Virus record (IMG/VR): IMGVR_UViG_3300025663_000002
Location: 13,979-77,978 of that record
Direction: 5' to 3' (one strand)
DNA: 64,000 nt
From: a virus
Taxonomy: Duplodnaviria; Caudoviricetes
Each line of letters opens with the position of its first letter. Within the stretch, counting starts at the first letter, position 1. The notes under the pieces are model-generated. The model ran no database searches and had not been told where the DNA came from. It worked only from the letters and a program-made list of their open reading frames with translations. Of the stretch, positions 6,671 through 15,978 are shown piece by piece. The translations under genes were made by a program, and so were the position numbers.

Positions 6671-9600
6671 ATGTCTAATAAGCAATTCACTGAGTCTCCG
6701 GCTAAGTTTCTTTCTATATTTGTAGAAAGAATGGTTCCCGAATATGTTCGAGAAGACCATCCAATGTTCGTTACATTCATGCAAAAGTATTTTGAATACT
6801 TAGAACGTGAAACCGACGTTAATGGAGAACTGGGTGAATACAAACAAATATCAGACCTTATTCAAAATGTTGATATTGACCACACATTAGACCAATTCAT
6901 TCCAGAATTTGAGAAGCAATATCTCCATAATATCCCACACGAAGCAATTGGTGCTGAGGTTGAAACCACAGATAAATCATTCCTTACTAAGAACATTAAA
7001 GAGTCTTATAAAGAAAAAGGTACTAAAAGTGCTTTGGACTTTCTATTCAGACGTGAATTTGATACAGAAGCGTATGTAGCATATCCTAAAGACTTTATGT
7101 TAAAAGCATCGGGTTCTATTTGGTACGAACCTCAATGGTTAGAAGTATCAGAACCAGAAGAAGATGTAAGGAAACTCTATAATAAGAAAGTGATCGGGCA
7201 AATTTCTGGTGCAACTGCCTTTGTAGATATTGAAGAAACTGCGGTTATGCCAGAAATAGAGAAATTACTTTTGACGCAAGTCGAAGGTTCTTTTGTTCAG
7301 GGTGAAGAAATTTGGGAAGAAGTCGGAACTAGTGGACTAACTCCTAATAAATTAACAGTAGTTTCTGATGGCATTATTGCACCTGCTACTTGTTACATTA
7401 ATGGTGTTGCGTGGAGTACGACTTATGGGGCAAACGTTCCACAAACGAAAACTGCATGTGAATCTTTAAAAGAAACAGACAATACAATTAAAACAGCAGT
7501 TTGGCTGCCTAATGGTTATTGGGTCGACTCGGCAGGTTTCTTGTCTTCTGATAGAAAGATGCAGGACAACAATTACTACCAAGACTTTTCTTATGTAATT
7601 CGTTCAGACGTTCCTGTACAAGCATATAGGGACGTATTAAAGAAATTAGTACACCCCGTTGGACTTAAATTATTCGCAGAATATATGTTTGAGACAACTG
7701 TTCCTATGGGAACAAAATTACCTGAAAAATACGCTGCATATCTTATTGCGATATTCTCTTATCTTGATGTTGCGGTTGATATTTACCCTAACGGTAAGTG
7801 TTCTGATTATCAAATTACAGATGAGATGACATGTAACGATAGTGGAGCAACTTGGACTAGAGGACAAAGTTACCGTACCACTCACCGTAAAACATACGAA
7901 TGGACTAGACCAGAAACGTTTGAGTTACAAGAAGATATTACTATTCCTTGGAACCATATGCGTTCGGACGGAACTACCCGTGAAGATATAGTAAACGGAG
8001 TTCCTCAAGGAAGCGGTCAAGACGAAGTAATATTATCTGGAACGATAATCAATACAACTTTACCTAAAGGTGAAGAACGTTACAGAACAAAAGTTTGGAA
8101 ATGTTCTGAACCAACAGGTAACTACTCTTATGGAAGCGAATCCGAACTACTAGTCGCCAGCACTAATTGTTTTGCGGCTGGAGGAGAGTGGTCACAGCAT
8201 ATTACTGGTTCTAATTATTCGGATATGACCGATGAGTGGATTTTCGTTGATAATCAATGGAAACCCGAGAGCATATACACCAAGAAAGAAACTCAAATTG
8301 GAGAAGAACATGAAGGGTTTGAGAAATTCTTAGACCAAGGTTTTGAAGATTATGTATTAGAGATTCTAAAGAAAACTGAAGTAAAATCTGAAATTTTAGA
8401 ACCATTAGATTGGAATCATCCTACAGACCATCTACTTCTTGACGTTACAACAGAACCTAATGTAATCGGTACTCGACTTCATAGTAAGTTATATCAAGTA
8501 TTCACAATGAATGAAAACATTAAGTTAGGACTTGATGCTTTCCCTGAAAAATTGATATTGGCATATTATCAGCAAATTAAAATTCTAGACACTGAAGTCC
8601 AAGGCGCCTTAGATAATACATTAAATATACGCAGAACCTTTAAAGGAATAAAAGAATATCAAACAACTAATTCTGTATGTTCAGATCCAACAATAACATC
8701 ATACACAGAATGTGTTGATGGAGGAACTTGTTCGGATTCAAATTACAACAACGACGAATATTCTTGTTTAAATGTTGGTTCGTGTTCCAGTGCTGCTGAT
8801 GGGTTATTTACCGAACTATTATGTAAAGGTTCTGGGTTTATATGGACACCACAATCGCCAGAAAACGTTTGGACATCTTCTGGTAATACTTGGACGCACG
8901 AGAATGTAGATTGGTTAGGAACTTATAACGAAGAATTCAAAGCAACAGACGGTCGTATGATTGGTTGTGAAGTTTGGGAATTATTGGTTGCTAAAGGTCT
9001 TGAATCTATCCTTGAATATAACTTAAGAATAGTTCAAGTAGAGTCGTATGCTCCTCAACAAAATTACCGTTTCTGGGAACAGAATAGAGAAAATACAATA
9101 ATTCAATCTATTTACGGTAACACGAATGATATTATCGATGCTGTGCATATTGAAGCGTTTGATGTCGACGGAGGAATACGTACACATATGCACGGGGAGG
9201 TAGATGGATTTGCCCCTATGGTCGACACCGTATTAACTAAAGGTGTAGATTTACCTCAAATGGCAGTCGGTGCTTCTGCGTTCCATACTCATTCGTTTGA
9301 TGGAACAGAATTAAAGAATTTATTAGTACACGGAAAGTCAATAGACGCTAGTGGAATTTCATACCAACAAACACGCGATCTATTAAACCGTGAGGCATTT
9401 GAAATACCAGATTTCCACGGCGCTAACTTAGTTTGTGGTGGTATTATGACTCCTCCTCTATGGGGCGATTGGGTTGATTCAGTTCAAGATCCTCGTTATA
9501 ACGGTGTTGGAGAATGTTTCAATTCTATTTACGAAAATGAGACAGATTGTGTAGGTTTCTACGGTGATCCTATGTTCTGGATGAGTCCTTCGTGTTCCGA

Positions 9601-12600
9601 CCAAGCAAGTGCTGATGAAGCAACGTGTCATAATGTTGGTCATTCTTGGGGATACTTTACATTAGCAGAACTTCCTCCTATGAAAGGACACGTTTCATAT
9701 TTCGTTAAAGGAGAAGTAGTAGATAGACAACGTGGACGTACTGCAGACCCTCTTACTAGAGAACAAGCAAGACAACTAATTGATGGTGATATTGCTTCTG
9801 TAACACTTTACGATAACGTCGGAGCTTTAGATAAAGAAGGAAACCCTACATACGACGAAAATGATATTACTATTGGTGGAACAATTACAAATATTCGTGG
9901 AGAAATTACTAGTGGTCACTATCACGAATATGCTGTAACATATGATGCAGATTGGAAAACTAAACAAGATTGGCGAGGCAACAATTTAACGCACGGGTTC
10001 GTTTACACACCAGTAACTACGTTCTTGTGTTTTAACTATAAACCAGATTTACCTGTTGACGAGACAATCATGGGTGGTATGGATTTCACTGGTCAACCAT
10101 GGCCACAAAATGTATTCATGGATGTTCCAGATTCATACGTTGGAGGATTCTTAAATAATCCAGATATCACATTACAACACAATCAAGTATGGGCTGAAGA
10201 TTTAAACCCTAATGTAGATTGGGTTGAAATATATTCATCTAACTTTATTCAAGATGTTCCTGGTTCGGGTACGATTGACGACTTGATTGGTGCAGAACAA
10301 GTTGGGGTTAATACTGATATTGCTACAATCAAAGCATATCCAAGAATGAATGAAGATTACATCGCATTGATAGACCAATCAGGTTTCATTTATTTACAGA
10401 AGGTGTCTGGTGAATGTTCAGATAATGCTTGGGGTAATAAACAAGATTGTTTAGACCTAGCAGGTATTTGTTCCAATACAACATTTAATAACAATCAAAT
10501 TTTATGTGAAAGTTCTGGTACTTGTTCAGACATCACATTTACTGACGAAACTCTTTGTTTGGTTGATGGTACTTGTTCAGACGGACTACTTCTTACGCAA
10601 TCTACGTGTGAAAGTGCGGGCACTTGTTCAGATGTTTCATATACAGCAGAAAATATATGCACTTCGTCTGGTGAAACTTGGACTCCCGCGGGTAACGTTT
10701 GGTCCACAATAAATAGTTGGAGTTTAGAGACTTGGACTCCTGCAACAAACACGTGGACAGTTCCTGATACAGCACCTTTATTGTTCATGGACTTGACTTC
10801 ATTACAACATGTTATTGGATTAGGTCCGTTTGGGAATTACGACGAACGTGGTGTACTAGGTTTAGCATTCCATCCAGATTATGTCAATAATGGTAAATTC
10901 TACGTTTACTATATGACAGAGCAAGGTGGAGGTACTGGATCGTTTGGATATCCGTTATCTACATCTGTTATTTCTGAATTCACTGCTACTTTTGGTGGTA
11001 ATTGGGACGTTGCTGATGTCACTTCAGAAAGAATTCTACTAGAAATCCCTCAACCAGATATGAACCACAACGGTGGTGAGTTAGAATTCGGTCCAGATGG
11101 ATACTTATACATCGGTTTAGGTGATGGTGGTAATGCTGGCGACACATCAACAACAACAGGTCATGGAGGTCATGGTGATTACGGTAATGCTCAGAATCCA
11201 ACAAACCTATTAGGCAACATTTTAAGAATTGATGTAACGGAAGATACTGTTAATAGTATGCCGTACACAATTCCTGCGGATAACCCATTCATTAATTCAA
11301 TTTATAAAGAAGGTCAGGCAGAAGCACAACCATTCAGACCAGAAATATATGCATACGGATTTAGAAATCCGTGGAGATTTTCTTTCGATACAGACGATAG
11401 ATTGTGGTGTGCAGACGTAGGACAGAACAAATTTGAAGAGGTAAACATTGTTGAAAAGGGTGGCAACTATGGTTGGAGAGTAATGGAATCATATCATTAC
11501 TACGAAGAACAGCAGTCTGTAATCGACCAAATGGCAATTGACTTAGGGTACACCACTACATTAGAGTATTTAAGCGATTTGAAGAAACCTATCCATGAAT
11601 ATTCTCACGGAACTGGTATTTCTGTCTTAGGTGGGTTTGTTTATCGTGGCACAGAAGTTCCAGAATTGACAGGTAAGTATATATTTGGAGATTGGGGTAA
11701 AACTTGGGAAGGCACTAGTGGACAACTATTTGCTTTAGAAGAAACCGTAGCAGGACTTGCTGCGAACTTTAATGTGTTGCCAAATGCAGTTAATGGGGCG
11801 ACGCACAGTCATACATTAACATTAACCACAGCAGAAGTTGACTTCTTACAAGCAAACCCAGGAAGTCCAGTAGTAACAATACAAACAGATTCAGTGCATG
11901 CCGAGTTTTATGTTCATACGTTTACGGTGACGTATAGTTCTGCTGATGGATTGTTCCATATCATTGGACAAACAAACCCAGAAGGTCATGACTTATTAGA
12001 GTTCGATGGTTGGTCTGACGATGTTGGATATAATAGAAGGTCTTTATCTTTCTGGGATCCTGTTACGGAAATTGTAACATTAACCACATTCGACGAATCT
12101 CTTTTAACTATGGGCGAAGATACACAAGGTGAGATTTATTTCTCAACTAGAGTTGGTATTGGCACATTCAGACCGCCTGGTATTGGACCGAATAATACTA
12201 AAATCTTTAAGATTACAGACTCTTATAGTTCAGTTGACGTTCCAAACGCTCCAGCTCAAATTCCAGTAACACAAAAAGCTCATACACATGGATATAAAGT
12301 AACATACAACTTCACCGAACAAATGTTTGAGGTTGTTGAAATTTCTGATATTGAAATGTCAACGTGGGACGCATTTTGGCCAATATGGGAGATTAATGAT
12401 CCAGCTTCGCACGTCCATCCAGTTATTACTGCATGGTCCCATGCAGTTGATGTTGAAATACCATTAGGTTCTTCTGCTGGTTGGCACTTCGACGAGGTTA
12501 CTCAAGAATGGGGACCATACGATATTGGTGCTGATACTGCTTGGGCGCCTCCTTCTGTTGATACTGGTGGTTATGTTACAATTGACGTTGCACCAAACCT

Positions 12601-14818
12601 TGCGGTGTCAATGGCAAATGAATATGGAGTTGAAGGACATTTCCATTACTTCGACGATGTTATTTTAGATTCTTTCGGTACTAATTATGGCAGACGATCT
12701 AACTCATTAAGTCGGGTTGGTGCAGAAATTCTCGCAAACCAAGAAGAAGGTTCTGTTCATACTTTATATTCTTCAATCGTAGACGACGGAACTCGACGAC
12801 ATTATCATGGTTATGATATTACATATTCTTCTGCACAACGTACATTTGTATTAGAAGAAACTGCTGAGTGGGAAGAGGGTGTACGTGATACTGGTGCGTA
12901 TATATTAGTTGGAACTCAAACCCACGAACATCCAACTTCAGTTGACGGACTACTAACGTCTGTTGGTTGGAACGGTGACCCATCATTTGAAGCACCATCG
13001 GCTGTCATCGGTCAGGCAAATGACTGGGACAATCTTAATGGGTCTTTAATTCCTCATCAACATTACTTTAATGATACTGGGTTAGACCAAGTTGGACCTA
13101 ATTCTGACAGAACTGCAGTTTATTTATCAAACACGCAAACAACCGACTTAATTTCGGGTGCTATTGAGAATGTTACATTATATTCTTCAATTTACCAAAA
13201 CCATTACCATGAGTACAATGTAACGTTCGACTCATTAAATGGTTCTTTAGTTATACAAGAAGTAGAACAGTGGGTATCTGCTGACAATCAACAATACTTT
13301 ATTAGAACTCCTGCTGATCACAGGCATCCAGTTTCCGTAGATGGTGTTCCTAGTGGAACTGGATATAATCAGATGATATCTATAAATAGTTTGCCTATAT
13401 TTGATTCTCCAGGTTTCCCTTATCCTGGTGGATCACATCCTCACTTCTTCAACGGCACAGTTGTTGGTCCATTCTCGGACGGCACTATTGAATATTCTGT
13501 TGGGTTAAGTGTTGATCAATCGTATAAGTTGATTGATGGTATAATTAATCAAGTTACACTTTATGACTCTATTTCTGGTGGACATTTTCACTCGTATGTT
13601 GTTAAGTGGGACGATTTGAATAATATATTCTATTGTACAAGTTCAGTTACATACGTTCGTGGTGGAATTGAAGACGCAACACAAGATACTGGTAAATATT
13701 ACCTATCGCAAATTCTAGGACCATCTGAAGGGTTGCATTGGCACAACTTAACGATTGACTGGAATCCAAATAATGAGGCAGTAGCACAGCAAAGTGGTGG
13801 TTCTATTTACCAAACAAACATAGCAAGTTCATACGAAACGTTAGTCAATCCTCCTTCAGTTGAAGTTAATGTTAATACAACAGCATTATCTCCTGTATCT
13901 ACAAGTTACCCAGATACACCGAGTGTTGGTGACAACACAACCATTATAACGTACAGTGATTTGACAACTACGACAACGACGACAACGACTATCACAAACG
14001 TAACAGAAACTATTACAACTAATATTTCAGACGGAACAAGTTCTTCTACAGTATTACCTCCAGTAGTTTCAACGGATGTAGATGTTGTGCAATCAACTCT
14101 GACGATTGAAAATGAACTCAAACGTAAGACATTTGTTAATAATATACTACAAGTTAATAATGCACCAACTATATGGATTGGCAATACATTTATTGACGGT
14201 GAAGGTTCTCATGATCATTTACTATACCAAGGTTGTTCTTTAGATACACAAGGACCGTTCTCGGGTAGAATGTGTGAACCAATTACCTTGGCAACTGCTA
14301 ACTTATTAATTAATGCGCAAGACCCTACTTTTGGAACAATTTTTTATGATTCTCCCAACGGCAACTTGTCGCATTATCATAGTTACTCGTTGAAGTTTAA
14401 CCCTTTCTTAGGTGACGACGGAACGTTCCTTGCTTTACCAATTAGTCAGTTTGATAGATTCCCTGGATCGGGTACGAACGTTCATAAGTTTATGTTAAGT
14501 GGTGGTTTCCACACCCATACATATTTCTTAACTGAGGCAGAATATGCTACGTTAGTTGGAGGAGGTTTGGTTCAAACCTCCCAAGCAGACGCTATTCACG
14601 CAGAACTATATACGCACACTTTAGTAATTAGACTTGTAAATTTCCAATATCAAATTGTATCTCAGTCGTCGGACTTTGATAACCACGATACCGTAATATA
14701 TCAAGGCATGGTTGCTGAGGGTGGACAATGGATTCAAAATCAACAAGGTTCTGGACTAGGTGACCATATTCATTCTACTACGATAGACGAATCGAATATA
14801 TGGCCTGTTCCAGCATAG
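6671..14818 (+). CDS. gp7: Baseplate wedge initiator gp7-like N-terminus fused to a very large accessory region (Cys/Trp modules, GSDH-type beta-propeller, HxH repeats); 2715 aa
   Basis: gp7 motifs VPEYVREDHPMFVTFMQKYFEYL, YKEKGTKSALDFLFR, QDNNYYQDFSYVIRS, LVHPVGLKLF in the first ~340 aa; synteny gp6-gp7-gp8. Confidence 0.88.
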   Translation: MSNKQFTESPAKFLSIFVERMVPEYVREDHPMFVTFMQKYFEYLERETDVNGELGEYKQISDLIQNVDIDHTLDQFIPEFEKQYLHNIPHEAIGAEVETTDKSFLTKNIKESYKEKGTKSALDFLFRREFDTEAYVAYPKDFMLKASGSIWYEPQWLEVSEPEEDVRKLYNKKVIGQISGATAFVDIEETAVMPEIEKLLLTQVEGSFVQGEEIWEEVGTSGLTPNKLTVVSDGIIAPATCYINGVAWSTTYGANVPQTKTACESLKETDNTIKTAVWLPNGYWVDSAGFLSSDRKMQDNNYYQDFSYVIRSDVPVQAYRDVLKKLVHPVGLKLFAEYMFETTVPMGTKLPEKYAAYLIAIFSYLDVAVDIYPNGKCSDYQITDEMTCNDSGATWTRGQSYRTTHRKTYEWTRPETFELQEDITIPWNHMRSDGTTREDIVNGVPQGSGQDEVILSGTIINTTLPKGEERYRTKVWKCSEPTGNYSYGSESELLVASTNCFAAGGEWSQHITGSNYSDMTDEWIFVDNQWKPESIYTKKETQIGEEHEGFEKFLDQGFEDYVLEILKKTEVKSEILEPLDWNHPTDHLLLDVTTEPNVIGTRLHSKLYQVFTMNENIKLGLDAFPEKLILAYYQQIKILDTEVQGALDNTLNIRRTFKGIKEYQTTNSVCSDPTITSYTECVDGGTCSDSNYNNDEYSCLNVGSCSSAADGLFTELLCKGSGFIWTPQSPENVWTSSGNTWTHENVDWLGTYNEEFKATDGRMIGCEVWELLVAKGLESILEYNLRIVQVESYAPQQNYRFWEQNRENTIIQSIYGNTNDIIDAVHIEAFDVDGGIRTHMHGEVDGFAPMVDTVLTKGVDLPQMAVGASAFHTHSFDGTELKNLLVHGKSIDASGISYQQTRDLLNREAFEIPDFHGANLVCGGIMTPPLWGDWVDSVQDPRYNGVGECFNSIYENETDCVGFYGDPMFWMSPSCSDQASADEATCHNVGHSWGYFTLAELPPMKGHVSYFVKGEVVDRQRGRTADPLTREQARQLIDGDIASVTLYDNVGALDKEGNPTYDENDITIGGTITNIRGEITSGHYHEYAVTYDADWKTKQDWRGNNLTHGFVYTPVTTFLCFNYKPDLPVDETIMGGMDFTGQPWPQNVFMDVPDSYVGGFLNNPDITLQHNQVWAEDLNPNVDWVEIYSSNFIQDVPGSGTIDDLIGAEQVGVNTDIATIKAYPRMNEDYIALIDQSGFIYLQKVSGECSDNAWGNKQDCLDLAGICSNTTFNNNQILCESSGTCSDITFTDETLCLVDGTCSDGLLLTQSTCESAGTCSDVSYTAENICTSSGETWTPAGNVWSTINSWSLETWTPATNTWTVPDTAPLLFMDLTSLQHVIGLGPFGNYDERGVLGLAFHPDYVNNGKFYVYYMTEQGGGTGSFGYPLSTSVISEFTATFGGNWDVADVTSERILLEIPQPDMNHNGGELEFGPDGYLYIGLGDGGNAGDTSTTTGHGGHGDYGNAQNPTNLLGNILRIDVTEDTVNSMPYTIPADNPFINSIYKEGQAEAQPFRPEIYAYGFRNPWRFSFDTDDRLWCADVGQNKFEEVNIVEKGGNYGWRVMESYHYYEEQQSVIDQMAIDLGYTTTLEYLSDLKKPIHEYSHGTGISVLGGFVYRGTEVPELTGKYIFGDWGKTWEGTSGQLFALEETVAGLAANFNVLPNAVNGATHSHTLTLTTAEVDFLQANPGSPVVTIQTDSVHAEFYVHTFTVTYSSADGLFHIIGQTNPEGHDLLEFDGWSDDVGYNRRSLSFWDPVTEIVTLTTFDESLLTMGEDTQGEIYFSTRVGIGTFRPPGIGPNNTKIFKITDSYSSVDVPNAPAQIPVTQKAHTHGYKVTYNFTEQMFEVVEISDIEMSTWDAFWPIWEINDPASHVHPVITAWSHAVDVEIPLGSSAGWHFDEVTQEWGPYDIGADTAWAPPSVDTGGYVTIDVAPNLAVSMANEYGVEGHFHYFDDVILDSFGTNYGRRSNSLSRVGAEILANQEEGSVHTLYSSIVDDGTRRHYHGYDITYSSAQRTFVLEETAEWEEGVRDTGAYILVGTQTHEHPTSVDGLLTSVGWNGDPSFEAPSAVIGQANDWDNLNGSLIPHQHYFNDTGLDQVGPNSDRTAVYLSNTQTTDLISGAIENVTLYSSIYQNHYHEYNVTFDSLNGSLVIQEVEQWVSADNQQYFIRTPADHRHPVSVDGVPSGTGYNQMISINSLPIFDSPGFPYPGGSHPHFFNGTVVGPFSDGTIEYSVGLSVDQSYKLIDGIINQVTLYDSISGGHFHSYVVKWDDLNNIFYCTSSVTYVRGGIEDATQDTGKYYLSQILGPSEGLHWHNLTIDWNPNNEAVAQQSGGSIYQTNIASSYETLVNPPSVEVNVNTTALSPVSTSYPDTPSVGDNTTIITYSDLTTTTTTTTTITNVTETITTNISDGTSSSTVLPPVVSTDVDVVQSTLTIENELKRKTFVNNILQVNNAPTIWIGNTFIDGEGSHDHLLYQGCSLDTQGPFSGRMCEPITLATANLLINAQDPTFGTIFYDSPNGNLSHYHSYSLKFNPFLGDDGTFLALPISQFDRFPGSGTNVHKFMLSGGFHTHTYFLTEAEYATLVGGGLVQTSQADAIHAELYTHTLVIRLVNFQYQIVSQSSDFDNHDTVIYQGMVAEGGQWIQNQQGSGLGDHIHSTTIDESNIWPVPA

Positions 14819-14889: not shown

Positions 14890-15978
14890 ATGGGTGCAAT
14901 TGTAACCAGTAAATTTAGAACTCAGAACTTGATGGTTTTCATCGACCAGTTTAAAACCACTGGTGTTGCGGCTGATGATAACTTCTTGTACTTAGGATTC
15001 GGACGTTCGGAAGCATGGTCGGACGACGTGAACGGAAACGACGAATCAAACGGTAACTTTATCTTACCAGACCCTCTTGACGAGGACGAGGCAAGATATT
15101 GGGCAGATATCGTTGGAGCAAAACGTATTCAGGACGATGATATTTCTCCTGTACTTCCTCGTATTGACTGGGACAACGGTGACCCGTATGCATTTGACGG
15201 TTCTGAAGGTGTAACAGGTATTCCTGACGCAGGTCGTTCATTTATCTCTATTGTTGGTTCTCATTCTATTGCAATGAATACAGAATACCGAGTGTATGAA
15301 TGTGTGAAAGAGCCTGGTGGAGCATATTGTGACAACTACACAAGCAATAGTGCAACTGATTGTGCTGCAGCTGGTGCGACTTGGACTGCAGAAACAAGTG
15401 GTTTTGGTAAATGTTACATTGGTGGTTCTTATTCAGCAATTCAAACAGATAGAACAACTTGTGAATCAACTACTGGTGGACTTTGGTTACCAAACGCTGC
15501 TTCTAATAGTCCTACTGGTGCGACTGGTGACACTCAACAAACCGTTGCTCAAGTAATTGACACATTAGATGGTTATGTATGGAAATACCTATACAAATTA
15601 GAACTAAACGACATTATTAACTCAACTACTAACGACTGGATGCCTGTAATTTATGGTGACGCGGTTCTTGCTGGTTCTGAGCAAGCAGTGTTTGGTGATT
15701 CTAATGCGATCTTCTCTGCTAAGTGTCATCATGGATTGATTCACGTTCGCCTTGAAACTAGTGACGGTTTCCCTGATAACGATGACTTCCGTCAAATTGG
15801 TTTACTACGTAATCCAGAGTTAGACGGTGGTGGTTCTAAAGCGCAGTCTTCTGTGTATTCTGATGCTACTTTATCTTTAGAAGAAAATACTGGACAGTTG
15901 ATTTATTTGGAAAACAGACGTGCGATTACTCGTGCCCCTGACCAAATTGAGGACCTGAAACTTGTAGTAGAATTCTAA
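14890..15978 (+). CDS. gp8: Baseplate wedge subunit gp8 with a Cys/Trp-module insertion
   Basis: MGAIVTSKFR, YLGFGRSEAW, YRVYEC, DGYVWKYLY, DDFRQIGLLRNP, GQLIYLENRRAITRAPDQIEDLKLVVEF. Confidence 0.93.
   Translation: MGAIVTSKFRTQNLMVFIDQFKTTGVAADDNFLYLGFGRSEAWSDDVNGNDESNGNFILPDPLDEDEARYWADIVGAKRIQDDDISPVLPRIDWDNGDPYAFDGSEGVTGIPDAGRSFISIVGSHSIAMNTEYRVYECVKEPGGAYCDNYTSNSATDCAAAGATWTAETSGFGKCYIGGSYSAIQTDRTTCESTTGGLWLPNAASNSPTGATGDTQQTVAQVIDTLDGYVWKYLYKLELNDIINSTTNDWMPVIYGDAVLAGSEQAVFGDSNAIFSAKCHHGLIHVRLETSDGFPDNDDFRQIGLLRNPELDGGGSKAQSSVYSDATLSLEENTGQLIYLENRRAITRAPDQIEDLKLVVEF

What the first reader, a model, noticed from the sequence alone, without database searches (positions are those of the whole stretch)
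10408..10757. Nested ('matryoshka') Cys/Trp repeat in gp7: five heads followed by five tails
Single copies of the module elsewhere read G-x-C-S-D-x7-9-C-x3-G-x-T-W-T (e.g. GKCSDYQITDEMTCNDSGATWT at ~7793-7860). Here five heads (CSDNAWGNKQDC, CSNTTFNNNQILC, CSDITFTDETLC, CSDGLLLTQSTC, CSDVSYTAENIC) are followed by exactly five Trp tails (ETWTP, NVWST, NSWS, ETWTP, NTWT). The array at ~8675-8895 has three heads and exactly three Trp tails (FIWTP, NVWTS, NTWT). Equal counts in two arrays suggest each unit was inserted inside the previous one, giving an out-and-back antiparallel stalk rather than beads on a string. I know of no description of this architecture in a T4-like baseplate.
Basis: partly seen in the sequence, partly recalled or inferred. 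Interest (0 to 1): 0.82.

Follow-up and report, generated by a model that had tools for sequence, protein, structure and literature searches.

The report
Nested cysteine-tryptophan ladder finger in gp7
A giant baseplate protein of an uncultured marine T4-like phage carries a small cysteine/tryptophan building block whose five front halves are followed by five back halves, which very probably fold into a disulfide-stapled finger sticking out of a loop; the same extendable layout recurs in many phage and bacterial surface proteins and I found no database entry or paper that describes it.

Summary
In the 2715-aa gp7-like ORF (6671-14818), aa 1249-1330 hold five Cys-x10/11-Cys heads, followed by five Trp tails (W1337, 1344, 1350, 1355, 1362). 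A second array has three heads and three tails, plus one further, non-canonical Trp.

The nested reading is supported by four lines of evidence.
- Of 28 orthologous gp7 loci, those printed or aligned have only a short hairpin turn at this site. One lineage (two contigs) has one head plus one tail. The window has one contiguous 97-aa block (four heads plus four tails) between that head and its Trp.
- The site aligns to a turn region early in the HHIP/GSDH-type propeller, so the ends of the insert must meet.
- Among 74 related arrays with at least two heads, 41 have equal counts against 11.6 expected. Counts co-vary within at least four orthologous families.
- AlphaFold2 with a 51-row alignment gives pLDDT 92.5, with five head strand-helix units and five tail strands.

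The single block matches by sequence a stretch of solved T4 gp8. The nested ladder matches nothing in PDB or BFVD and has no Pfam or NCBIfam model. Nested repeats are published for cyanobacterial RNA polymerase Si3. This scan noted the same layout earlier on other DNA. Function (rigid, length-adjustable surface finger) is inferred.

The parts
6671..14818 (+). gp7-like giant baseplate wedge protein (2715 aa) that carries the arrays
   Evidence: Pfam PF23786 at 29.6 bits (cut-off 27) and phrog_17744 at 1e-51. It lies between a 590-aa ORF and a gp8 homologue (PF09215).
10361..10405 (+). Upstream segment of the propeller (aa 1231-1245) that leads into the array
   Evidence: Conserved in 28 orthologues. 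In an orthologue without the insert it aligns without a break to HHIP propeller residues 27 onward.
10415..10450 (+). Head 1 (Cys1249-Cys1260), outermost
   Evidence: Aligns to the only head of orthologue L041. Model strand 9-10 and helix 18-24.
10469..10507 (+). Head 2 (Cys1267-Cys1279)
   Evidence: Model strand 26-28 and helix 37-42.
10523..10558 (+). Head 3 (Cys1285-Cys1296)
   Evidence: Model strand 44-46 and helix 54-59.
10574..10609 (+). Head 4 (Cys1302-Cys1313)
   Evidence: Model strand 61-63 and helix 71-76.
10625..10660 (+). Head 5 (Cys1319-Cys1330), innermost; with tail 1 it forms a contiguous canonical module
   Evidence: Model strand 78-80 and helix 88-93.
10676..10684 (+). Tail 1 (T-W1337-T), inferred partner of head 5
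   Evidence: Same Cys-x3-Gly-x-x-Trp spacing as in single modules. Model strand 98-100.
10697..10705 (+). Tail 2 (V-W1344-S), inferred partner of head 4
   Evidence: Model strand 105-107.
10715..10723 (+). Tail 3 (S-W1350-S), inferred partner of head 3
   Evidence: Model strand 111-113.
10730..10738 (+). Tail 4 (T-W1355-T), inferred partner of head 2
   Evidence: Model strand 116-118.
10751..10759 (+). Tail 5 (T-W1362-T), outermost, partner of head 1
   Evidence: Aligns to the only tail of orthologue L041, directly before the conserved flank. Model strand 122-123 has two residues, like the strand of head 1.
10760..10825 (+). Downstream segment of the propeller (aa 1364-1385)
   Evidence: Conserved in 28 orthologues. 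Aligns to HHIP/GSDH propellers. Pfam GSDH covers aa 1391-1673.
8678..8893 (+). Array B: three heads (aa 670-718) and three tails (W725, W734, W741)
   Evidence: Also 3/3 in relatives L017/L031. The whole array is absent in the 55%-identical relative L071.
7799..7855 (+). Single module, aa 377-395
9593..9649 (+). Single module, aa 975-993
   Evidence: Relative L031 has two more modules in tandem just upstream.
15316..15393 (+). Single module in gp8
   Evidence: In the HMMER alignments this module lines up with the copy in the 9F4A gp8-like chain. T4 gp8 (1N7Z) carries its own copy, which aligns to the adjacent, degenerate second module of the window's gp8.

Best explanation
Array A is a recursively nested repeat of one ~24-residue module.

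The module:
- a strand G-x-Cys;
- a short loop (S-D/N, often an aromatic residue);
- a helix that holds the second Cys and ends in Gly;
- a strand x-Trp-Thr that pairs back onto the first strand.
- The two Cys most likely form a disulfide that staples the helix to the strand, and the Trp covers this small core.

The nested form:
- The link between the helix-capping Gly and the Trp strand is opened and a further module sits there, five deep.
- The chain therefore climbs through five head units and descends through five Trp strands, each zipping onto its own head (tail k on head N+1-k).
- The result is a ladder-like finger with five rungs. Both chain ends are at its base, and it plugs into a turn early in the HHIP/GSDH-type propeller of gp7.

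Shown:
- the sequence layout;
- the contiguous 97-aa insertion between the head and the Trp of an ancestral single module;
- the 0/1/5 series at one turn;
- the co-variation of counts;
- a confident model with five plus five short strands.

Inferred:
- the exact rung register;
- the disulfides;
- rigidity;
- the role. I take it to be a length-adjustable, oxidation-hardened projection on the baseplate periphery that sets the reach or contacts of the propeller domain toward the host surface. I put that role at about 0.4. The confidence given for this explanation refers to the architecture.
For: (a). Against the ~79%-identical orthologue L031, the window has one gap-free extra block of 97 aa. It lies between a head that aligns to head 1 and a Trp that aligns to tail 5.

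(b). Twenty-eight orthologous loci were found. All but the two contigs of one lineage show only a 6-8-aa turn at this site in the printed segments; ten of them are aligned in A5. That one lineage (L041/L042) has 1+1 and the window has 5+5.

(c). The insert-free orthologue aligns continuously to HHIP propeller residues 27-222 across this site, so the insert's ends must be adjacent.

(d). In an unrelated protein (P0003) a 6+6 array replaces a ~20-residue segment inside the PAD catalytic domain, which is the same plug-in behaviour.

(e) Counts.
- 41 of 74 arrays are equal, against 11.6 expected.
- One virion-protein family has 5/5 and a member with 4/4.
- Within-family co-variation: 2/2 vs 3/3, 3/3 vs 4/4, and 4/4, 6/6, 7/7 and 9/9 in TadG/VWA proteins.
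- One locus has 9/9 (L022).

(f). AlphaFold2 with a 51-row alignment gives mean pLDDT 92.5, with all five models at 89.7-92.5. There are five head strands and five tail strands of matching length.

(g). The module motif is present in solved T4 gp8. Foldseek's top, not significant, match is 29 columns of the model on that chain at rmsd 1.2 A; its ranges were not shown.

(h) Carriers are virion, pilus, VWA, MYXO-CTERM and other secreted proteins, which fits disulfide formation.
Against: - I could not read the model's coordinates or PAE, so no contact list supports the register directly.
- Two sequence-only register tests were weak or neutral.
- 33 of 74 arrays were not exactly equal under my parser. 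Many are parser artefacts (a flank Trp, Phe/Tyr in place of Trp, long linkers), but some may be real N/N+-1 states.
- Array B has an extra Trp.
- Heads-only arrays without Trp tails exist in another phage (L034), so heads can apparently stand alone in a variant with shorter, Gly-free linkers.
- Nothing bears directly on function.
- A cultured relative (Melnitz) has almost Cys-free baseplate proteins and no module, so the finger is dispensable for the basic machine.
Confidence: 0.8

Rival explanations
1. Two independent repeat arrays that merely adjoin: a string of disulfide-loop beads followed by a Trp-Thr-rich linker or separate small sheet. Under this view equal numbers are coincidental or reflect only common length scaling.
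For: - Tail units within one array are often nearly identical to each other, for example in L029 and P0004. This suggests tails expand by their own tandem duplication.
- Off-by-one arrays exist.
- Heads-only arrays exist (L034).
Against: - Equal counts are far above shuffled expectation, and counts co-vary within orthologous families.
- The orthologue's single module is split by the insertion, with its head at one end and its Trp at the other.
- The array sits in a turn, so it must return to its start.
- The confident model gives every head and every tail a short strand.
Confidence: 0.08
2. Nested topology as described, but the paired cysteines bind metal (for example four Cys from two neighbouring heads) rather than forming intra-head disulfides. 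The rungs would then be metal-stapled.
For: - Phage virions assemble in a reducing cytoplasm.
- Neighbouring heads place four Cys within about 30 residues.
Against: - Single modules with only two Cys are common and conserved, including the copy in T4 gp8.
- Arrays with odd head numbers are common.
- Carriers are overwhelmingly extracellular.
Confidence: 0.07
3. The predicted ladder is an artefact of the hand-built alignment. Under this view the region is a flexible, low-complexity spacer whose Cys and Trp are conserved for another reason, such as modification sites.
For: - Single-sequence AlphaFold2 gave pLDDT 34.
- The alignment contains rows with different unit numbers.
- No whole-fold match exists against which to validate the model.
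Against: - All five models reach 89.7-92.5.
- The module motif occurs in an experimentally solved protein, T4 gp8, and Foldseek's top match is a module-sized piece of that chain.
- Cys, Gly and Trp positions are invariant over very diverse proteins.
Confidence: 0.05

Closest known systems
Single Cys-x10-Cys-x3-Gly-Gly-x-Trp-Thr module of T4 baseplate protein gp8 (PDB 1N7Z and related entries) and of the gp8-like chain in 9F4A
   Same: - Same sequence signature.
- Foldseek places 29 columns of the model on 1N7Z at rmsd 1.2 A and 34% identity (E 2.4, so weak by score, and the aligned ranges were not shown).
- Same kind of protein, a baseplate wedge.
- The window's own gp8 carries the module too.
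   Different: - In gp8 it is one contiguous copy that is part of the protein. It is never opened and never stacked.
- It has no Pfam or NCBIfam model of its own.
- I found no text that names it as a module.
Si3 insertion of cyanobacterial RNA polymerase beta-prime (eight SBHM domains; PMC10895346)
   Same: - It is a repeated domain that is not arranged in simple tandem.
- Several copies are built from distant parts of the chain.
- The whole elongated body is an insertion in a loop (the trigger loop), so its ends are adjacent.
   Different: - The unit there is a ~70-100-residue beta sandwich-barrel without disulfides. Here it is a ~24-residue disulfide/Trp micro-unit.
- Here the nesting is strictly regular (all heads, then all tails).
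- Here the depth is greater: 9 matched levels in L022 and P0054, and 10-16 heads in other homologues.
- There is no sequence or fold relation.
Thrombospondin type 1 repeat (TSR; layered Cys-Trp-Arg fold, PMC2173040)
   Same: It is a small, elongated extracellular fold whose core is a stack of Trp layers held by disulfides (abstract read).
   Different: - TSR has a fixed length and three strands.
- Its Trp residues lie on one strand as WxxW and interleave with Arg.
- It has no helices and no recursion.
- There is no Pfam TSP_1 hit here and no fold match.
   Same: Same layout (five openers, five closers) and the same reading as a finger, reported on other DNA.
   Different: It is an AI note, not a publication, so I used it as a lead only. 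The orthologue series at one turn region, the link to T4 gp8 and the count statistics were worked out here.

Membership tests
gp8-type Cys-Cys-Trp module (unnamed; present in solved T4 gp8, 1N7Z) | Two Cys separated by 10-14 residues | tested here: met
   All five heads of array A and all three of array B.
gp8-type Cys-Cys-Trp module (unnamed; present in solved T4 gp8, 1N7Z) | Second Cys followed by x3-Gly-x(1-2)-Trp-[Thr/Ser] | tested here: met
   Met contiguously for head 5 with tail 1. For heads 1-4 it is met only across the nested insert. For head 1 with tail 5 this is shown by the orthologue alignment.
gp8-type Cys-Cys-Trp module (unnamed; present in solved T4 gp8, 1N7Z) | Local strand-helix-strand fold that superposes on the solved copy | tested here: inconclusive
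   Foldseek gives 29 columns, rmsd 1.2 A, 34% identity and probability 0.90, but E = 2.4 and no ranges are shown. VIA-align reports no Z of 2 or more.
gp8-type Cys-Cys-Trp module (unnamed; present in solved T4 gp8, 1N7Z) | Intra-module disulfide | not testable with these tools
   Model coordinates were not readable and there is no experimental data.
Nested (domain-in-domain) repeats of the Si3 type | Units are assembled from distant chain segments, and the whole body is an insertion whose ends are adjacent | tested here: met
   The series 0, 1 and 5 modules at one turn of the propeller; a 97-aa block between the head and the Trp of one module; and a 6+6 array inside the PAD catalytic domain.
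Thrombospondin type 1 repeat (Pfam PF00090) | Profile match; WxxW motif with Arg layers and six Cys | tested here: not met
   No TSP_1 hit at E up to 1. Trp spacing is 5-7 residues. There is no fold match.
T4-type baseplate wedge protein gp7 | Profile match and gene order gp6-gp7-gp8 | tested here: met
   PF23786 at 29.6 bits (cut-off 27) and phrog_17744 at 1e-51. The next ORF is gp8 (PF09215, 1.4e-35).
Glucose/sorbosone dehydrogenase / HHIP six-bladed propeller (PF07995) | Profile match over the propeller | tested here: met
   PF07995 at 111 bits over aa 1391-1673. The orthologue matches HHIP at E 2.5e-25 and sGDH at 1e-13. Catalytic competence was not examined.

The most novel reading that the evidence does not exclude
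The Cys-Cys-Trp block is a general, recursively extendable plug-in element of extracellular proteins. Each added head/tail pair adds one disulfide-stapled rung, so evolution can set the length of a rigid finger in whole rungs, from 1 to at least 9 matched pairs (heads alone reach 16). Phage baseplates, Tad/VWA pilus proteins, pilin-like proteins and secreted enzymes all use it. That would make it the smallest and most deeply nested natural repeat I know of, an unnamed fold family, and a possible ready-made scaffold for protein design.
Probability: 0.55. Interest if true: 0.8.

Novelty: new variant of a known kind. Interest (0 to 1): 0.7.

Why it matters
- It would add a missing entry to the domain libraries. 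The block is common in marine phage virion proteins and in bacterial pilus and adhesin proteins, and no Pfam or NCBIfam model covered any array I scanned.
- It shows a rare way of building repeat proteins: by recursion rather than by tandem copies. The unit is only about 24 residues, and the depth exceeds the published Si3 case.
- For phage biology it marks lineage-specific, length-variable projections on the baseplate periphery (0, 1 or 5 rungs at one turn among close relatives). Such projections are candidates for tuning host-surface contact.
- For protein engineering, a disulfide-stapled ladder whose two ends meet is an attractive loop-insertable spacer.

Tried and rejected
- **AlphaFold2 without an alignment:** pLDDT 34, useless.
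- **Complex prediction**, heads (aa 1245-1333) against tails (aa 1334-1367), with alignments: score 0.30 and 0.27 against a mark of 0.32. No verdict, no controls run; not evidence either way.
- **Sequence searches of the PDB** with the array and with a six-sequence module profile: nothing usable. The gp8 link came only from Foldseek and from searching with gp8 itself.
- **Weak Pfam hit** of another window ORF to T4 gp10 domain 3 (E 0.0013): not confirmed by the PDB search.
- **megablast and tblastn of the array against GenBank phages:** no match or only noise. The low-complexity filter probably hides arrays, so this says nothing about cultured phages.
- **The search for related loci** with the array alone or with the broad alignment: failed. 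DNA patterns and the conserved flanks worked instead.
- **Word-based protein search:** only nine hits, mostly TadG.
- **ESM Atlas:** no usable hit.
- **Register tests from sequence:**
  - Head period against tail spacing gave r = -0.21 for the nested register and +0.16 for the parallel one. Both are weak and confounded by families.
  - Head-similarity against tail-similarity matrices favoured the nested register in 16 of 22 arrays (mean r 0.18 vs 0.02), but the arrays are not independent.
- **Six literature searches:** no description of the block or the layout. The library lacks most subscription journals, so this is weak evidence of novelty.
- **Parallel register** (tail k on head k): rejected. 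Tail 1 follows head N at the fixed single-module spacing, and the numbers of units vary freely, which a closed ring would not allow.
Full report
**Context.** The window is part of a 78-kb IMG/VR virus contig. Its portal protein is about 50% identical to those of Methylophilales phage Melnitz and of marine cyanomyophages. It is therefore an uncultured marine T4-like myophage. The finding lies in a 2715-aa ORF (6671-14818). Its N-terminus matches baseplate wedge protein gp7 (PF23786, phrog_17744). The next ORF is gp8, and aa 1391-1673 match the GSDH/HHIP propeller family.

**Observation.**
- Array A has five Cys-x10/11-Cys heads at aa 1249-1330, then Trp at 1337, 1344, 1350, 1355 and 1362.
- Array B has three heads (aa 670-718) and Trp at 725, 734 and 741. 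A fourth Trp at 748 lies in a non-canonical V-D-W-L context and is kept in close relatives.
- Single modules (Cys-x10-Cys-x3-Gly-x-x-Trp-Thr) occur at aa 377 and 975 of gp7 and in four other structural ORFs, including gp8.
- There is no DNA-level tandem repeat, so the units are old.

**How general is it?** An exhaustive phmmer search of 1.84 billion representatives gave 61 proteins, and a word-based search added eight. Almost every one shows n heads followed by n x-Trp-Thr tails.
- A crude parser over these proteins and about 40 fetched loci found 205 distinct arrays, with Pearson r = 0.81 between head and tail numbers.
- Of 74 arrays with at least two heads, 41 are exactly equal and 63 are within one. 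Shuffling gives 11.6 equal on average and never more than 24 in 10,000 trials.
- Many misses are parsing errors: a conserved Trp at the start of the next domain in TadG proteins, Phe or Tyr in place of Trp, or unusually long linkers.
- A DNA pattern that demanded only two canonical heads and nothing about tails recovered arrays of 2/2, 3/3, 4/4, 5/5 and 9/9. It also recovered one heads-only variant with shorter, glycine-free linkers.
- Counts co-vary inside orthologous families that share flanks:
  - 5/5 and 4/4 in one virion-protein family;
  - 2/2 and 3/3, and 3/3 and 4/4, in two others;
  - 4/4, 6/6, 7/7 and 9/9 in TadG/VWA proteins.
- Carriers include phage structural proteins, Flp-pilus TadG/VWA proteins, a pilin-like protein, a protein-arginine deiminase and a MYXO-CTERM protein. 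All are exported or virion proteins.
- No Pfam or NCBIfam model covers the arrays that I scanned.

**The decisive comparison.** The conserved flank downstream of array A retrieved 28 orthologous gp7 loci.
- At the array site, the printed segments of all but two contigs show only a 6-8-residue turn between two conserved segments. Ten of these are aligned in A5.
- Two contigs of one lineage have exactly one head and one tail.
- The window has five and five.
- Against the ~79%-identical orthologue, the window's extra material is one contiguous 97-residue block: heads 2-5 plus tails 1-4. The orthologue's head aligns to head 1, and its Trp aligns to tail 5 just before the conserved flank.
- So the ancestral module is split by the insert. 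That is nesting at the level of sequence.

**The ends must meet.**
- An insert-free orthologue aligns without interruption to the solved HHIP propeller (residues 27-222, E 2.5e-25) across this site. The site falls in a turn region early in the propeller.
- From what I know of this fold, I take it to be a hairpin turn of the first blade. I did not check the solved secondary structure.
- Whatever is inserted there must return to its starting point.
- Array B behaves alike: 3/3 in close relatives and wholly absent in a 55%-identical one.
- In an unrelated protein, a 6/6 array replaces a ~20-residue segment inside the PAD catalytic domain.

**Structure.**
- Without an alignment AlphaFold2 failed, with pLDDT 34.
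- With a 51-row alignment of arrays it gave mean pLDDT 92.5 and pTM 0.67. All five models lay between 89.7 and 92.5.
- Each head is a short strand (Gly-x-Cys) followed by a helix that contains the second Cys.
- Each tail is a short strand that starts at the Trp.
- There are five head strands and five tail strands. The two outermost (head 1 and tail 5) are both two residues long, and the rest are three.
- I could not read coordinates, so the rung register is inferred from three facts:
  - tail 1 follows head 5 at the fixed single-module spacing;
  - tail 5 is the orthologue's partner of head 1;
  - successive tails are only 5-7 residues apart and so can reach only the neighbouring rung.
- The whole model matches nothing:
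  - Foldseek against PDB and BFVD gives only module-sized pieces.
  - VIA-align finds no chain with Z of 2 or more among 48,161 representatives.
- The top Foldseek piece is T4 gp8 (29 columns, rmsd 1.2 A, 34% identity; E 2.4, ranges not shown).
- HMMER alignments show that T4 gp8 (1N7Z) and the gp8-like chain of 9F4A each carry one canonical module. The building block is thus part of solved structures although unnamed.

**Mechanism proposed.** The module is a disulfide-stapled strand-helix unit closed by a Trp strand. Opening it before the Trp and inserting another module, repeatedly, gives an out-and-back ladder with one disulfide and one Trp per rung and both termini at the base.
- Folding would plausibly start at the contiguous innermost module and zip outward. 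This is inference.
- On gp7 the finger projects from the propeller that follows.
- Close relatives carry 0, 1 or 5 rungs, and a cultured relative has almost Cys-free baseplate proteins. The finger is therefore an accessory.
- Its likeliest role is a rigid spacer or contact element that hardens in oxidising seawater. I give that role about 0.4.

**How arrays grow is open.**
- The differences between orthologues can be explained by single central indels of whole head-tail blocks.
- Near-identical tail units inside some arrays point to separate tandem duplication of tails, with selection for matched numbers.

**Known and new.**
- Nested repeated domains are published for the Si3 insertion of cyanobacterial RNA polymerase. 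There, several of eight SBHM domains are built from distant chain segments (PMC10895346).
- The thrombospondin type 1 repeat is a Trp/disulfide layered mini-fold (PMC2173040), but neither its profile nor its fold matches here.
- This scan had already noted the same layout on another marine phage (e1-5731340). I treated that as a lead.
- I found no paper that describes the block or its nesting in six searches of a library that lacks most subscription journals.
- I rate it a new variant of a known kind: recursive domain nesting with a very small, regular unit and great depth.

**What failed or was neutral.**
- The heads-versus-tails complex job gave no verdict.
- Two sequence-only register tests were weak.
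- Several searches with the array itself returned nothing because of length limits or low-complexity filtering.

Noticed in passing
window 9284-14524 (gp7 aa 872-2618): There are fourteen His-x-His-x-[Tyr/Phe/Leu] motifs, often in the form G-H-Y-H-E-Y-x-V-T-Y-D, spread through the C-terminal two thirds of gp7. gp7 has 78 His in all. This looks like a second repeated module, possibly metal-binding.
   Followed up: no
window 10760-11690 (gp7 aa ~1364-1673): A GSDH/HHIP-type six-bladed propeller is embedded in gp7 (PF07995, 111 bits). The best solved match of an orthologue is the Hedgehog-interacting protein propeller, ahead of PQQ glucose dehydrogenase. Other first-reader notes on this window discuss whether it is an active enzyme.
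   Followed up: partly
L031:8455-13347 (gp7 orthologue aa 986-1030) versus window aa 949-993: At another site the relative has two extra complete modules in plain tandem (head-tail, head-tail) where the window has one. The same block therefore also multiplies as beads on a string.
   Followed up: partly
L034:1138-1833 (IMGVR_UViG_3300020595_000007, a 319-kb contig): This is an array of nine Cys-Ser-Asp-type heads with 3-4-residue, glycine-free linkers and no Trp tails at all. It is a heads-only variant in a very large phage.
   Followed up: no
window 13964-14020 (gp7 aa ~2432-2450): A run of nine Thr inside a Thr/Ser/Ile-rich stretch, a possible flexible or glycosylated linker.
   Followed up: no
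L073 (Methylophilales phage Melnitz-3, record 77403-95965): The baseplate proteins of this cultured relative are almost free of cysteine: 0-1 Cys in the gp5-, gp6-, gp7- and gp8-like proteins. They have no Cys-Cys-Trp module, in sharp contrast to the window phage.
   Followed up: partly
window 15316-15480 (gp8 aa 143-197): The window's gp8 has a canonical module followed closely by a second, degenerate one with a longer loop (aa ~173-197). T4 gp8 and the 9F4A chain have a single copy.
   Followed up: partly
P0047, P0050, P0018 (homologues): These are very deep arrays: 12, 16 and 10 heads, followed by long runs of Trp/Tyr-rich tails. The tails are too degenerate for my parser to count exactly.
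   Followed up: no
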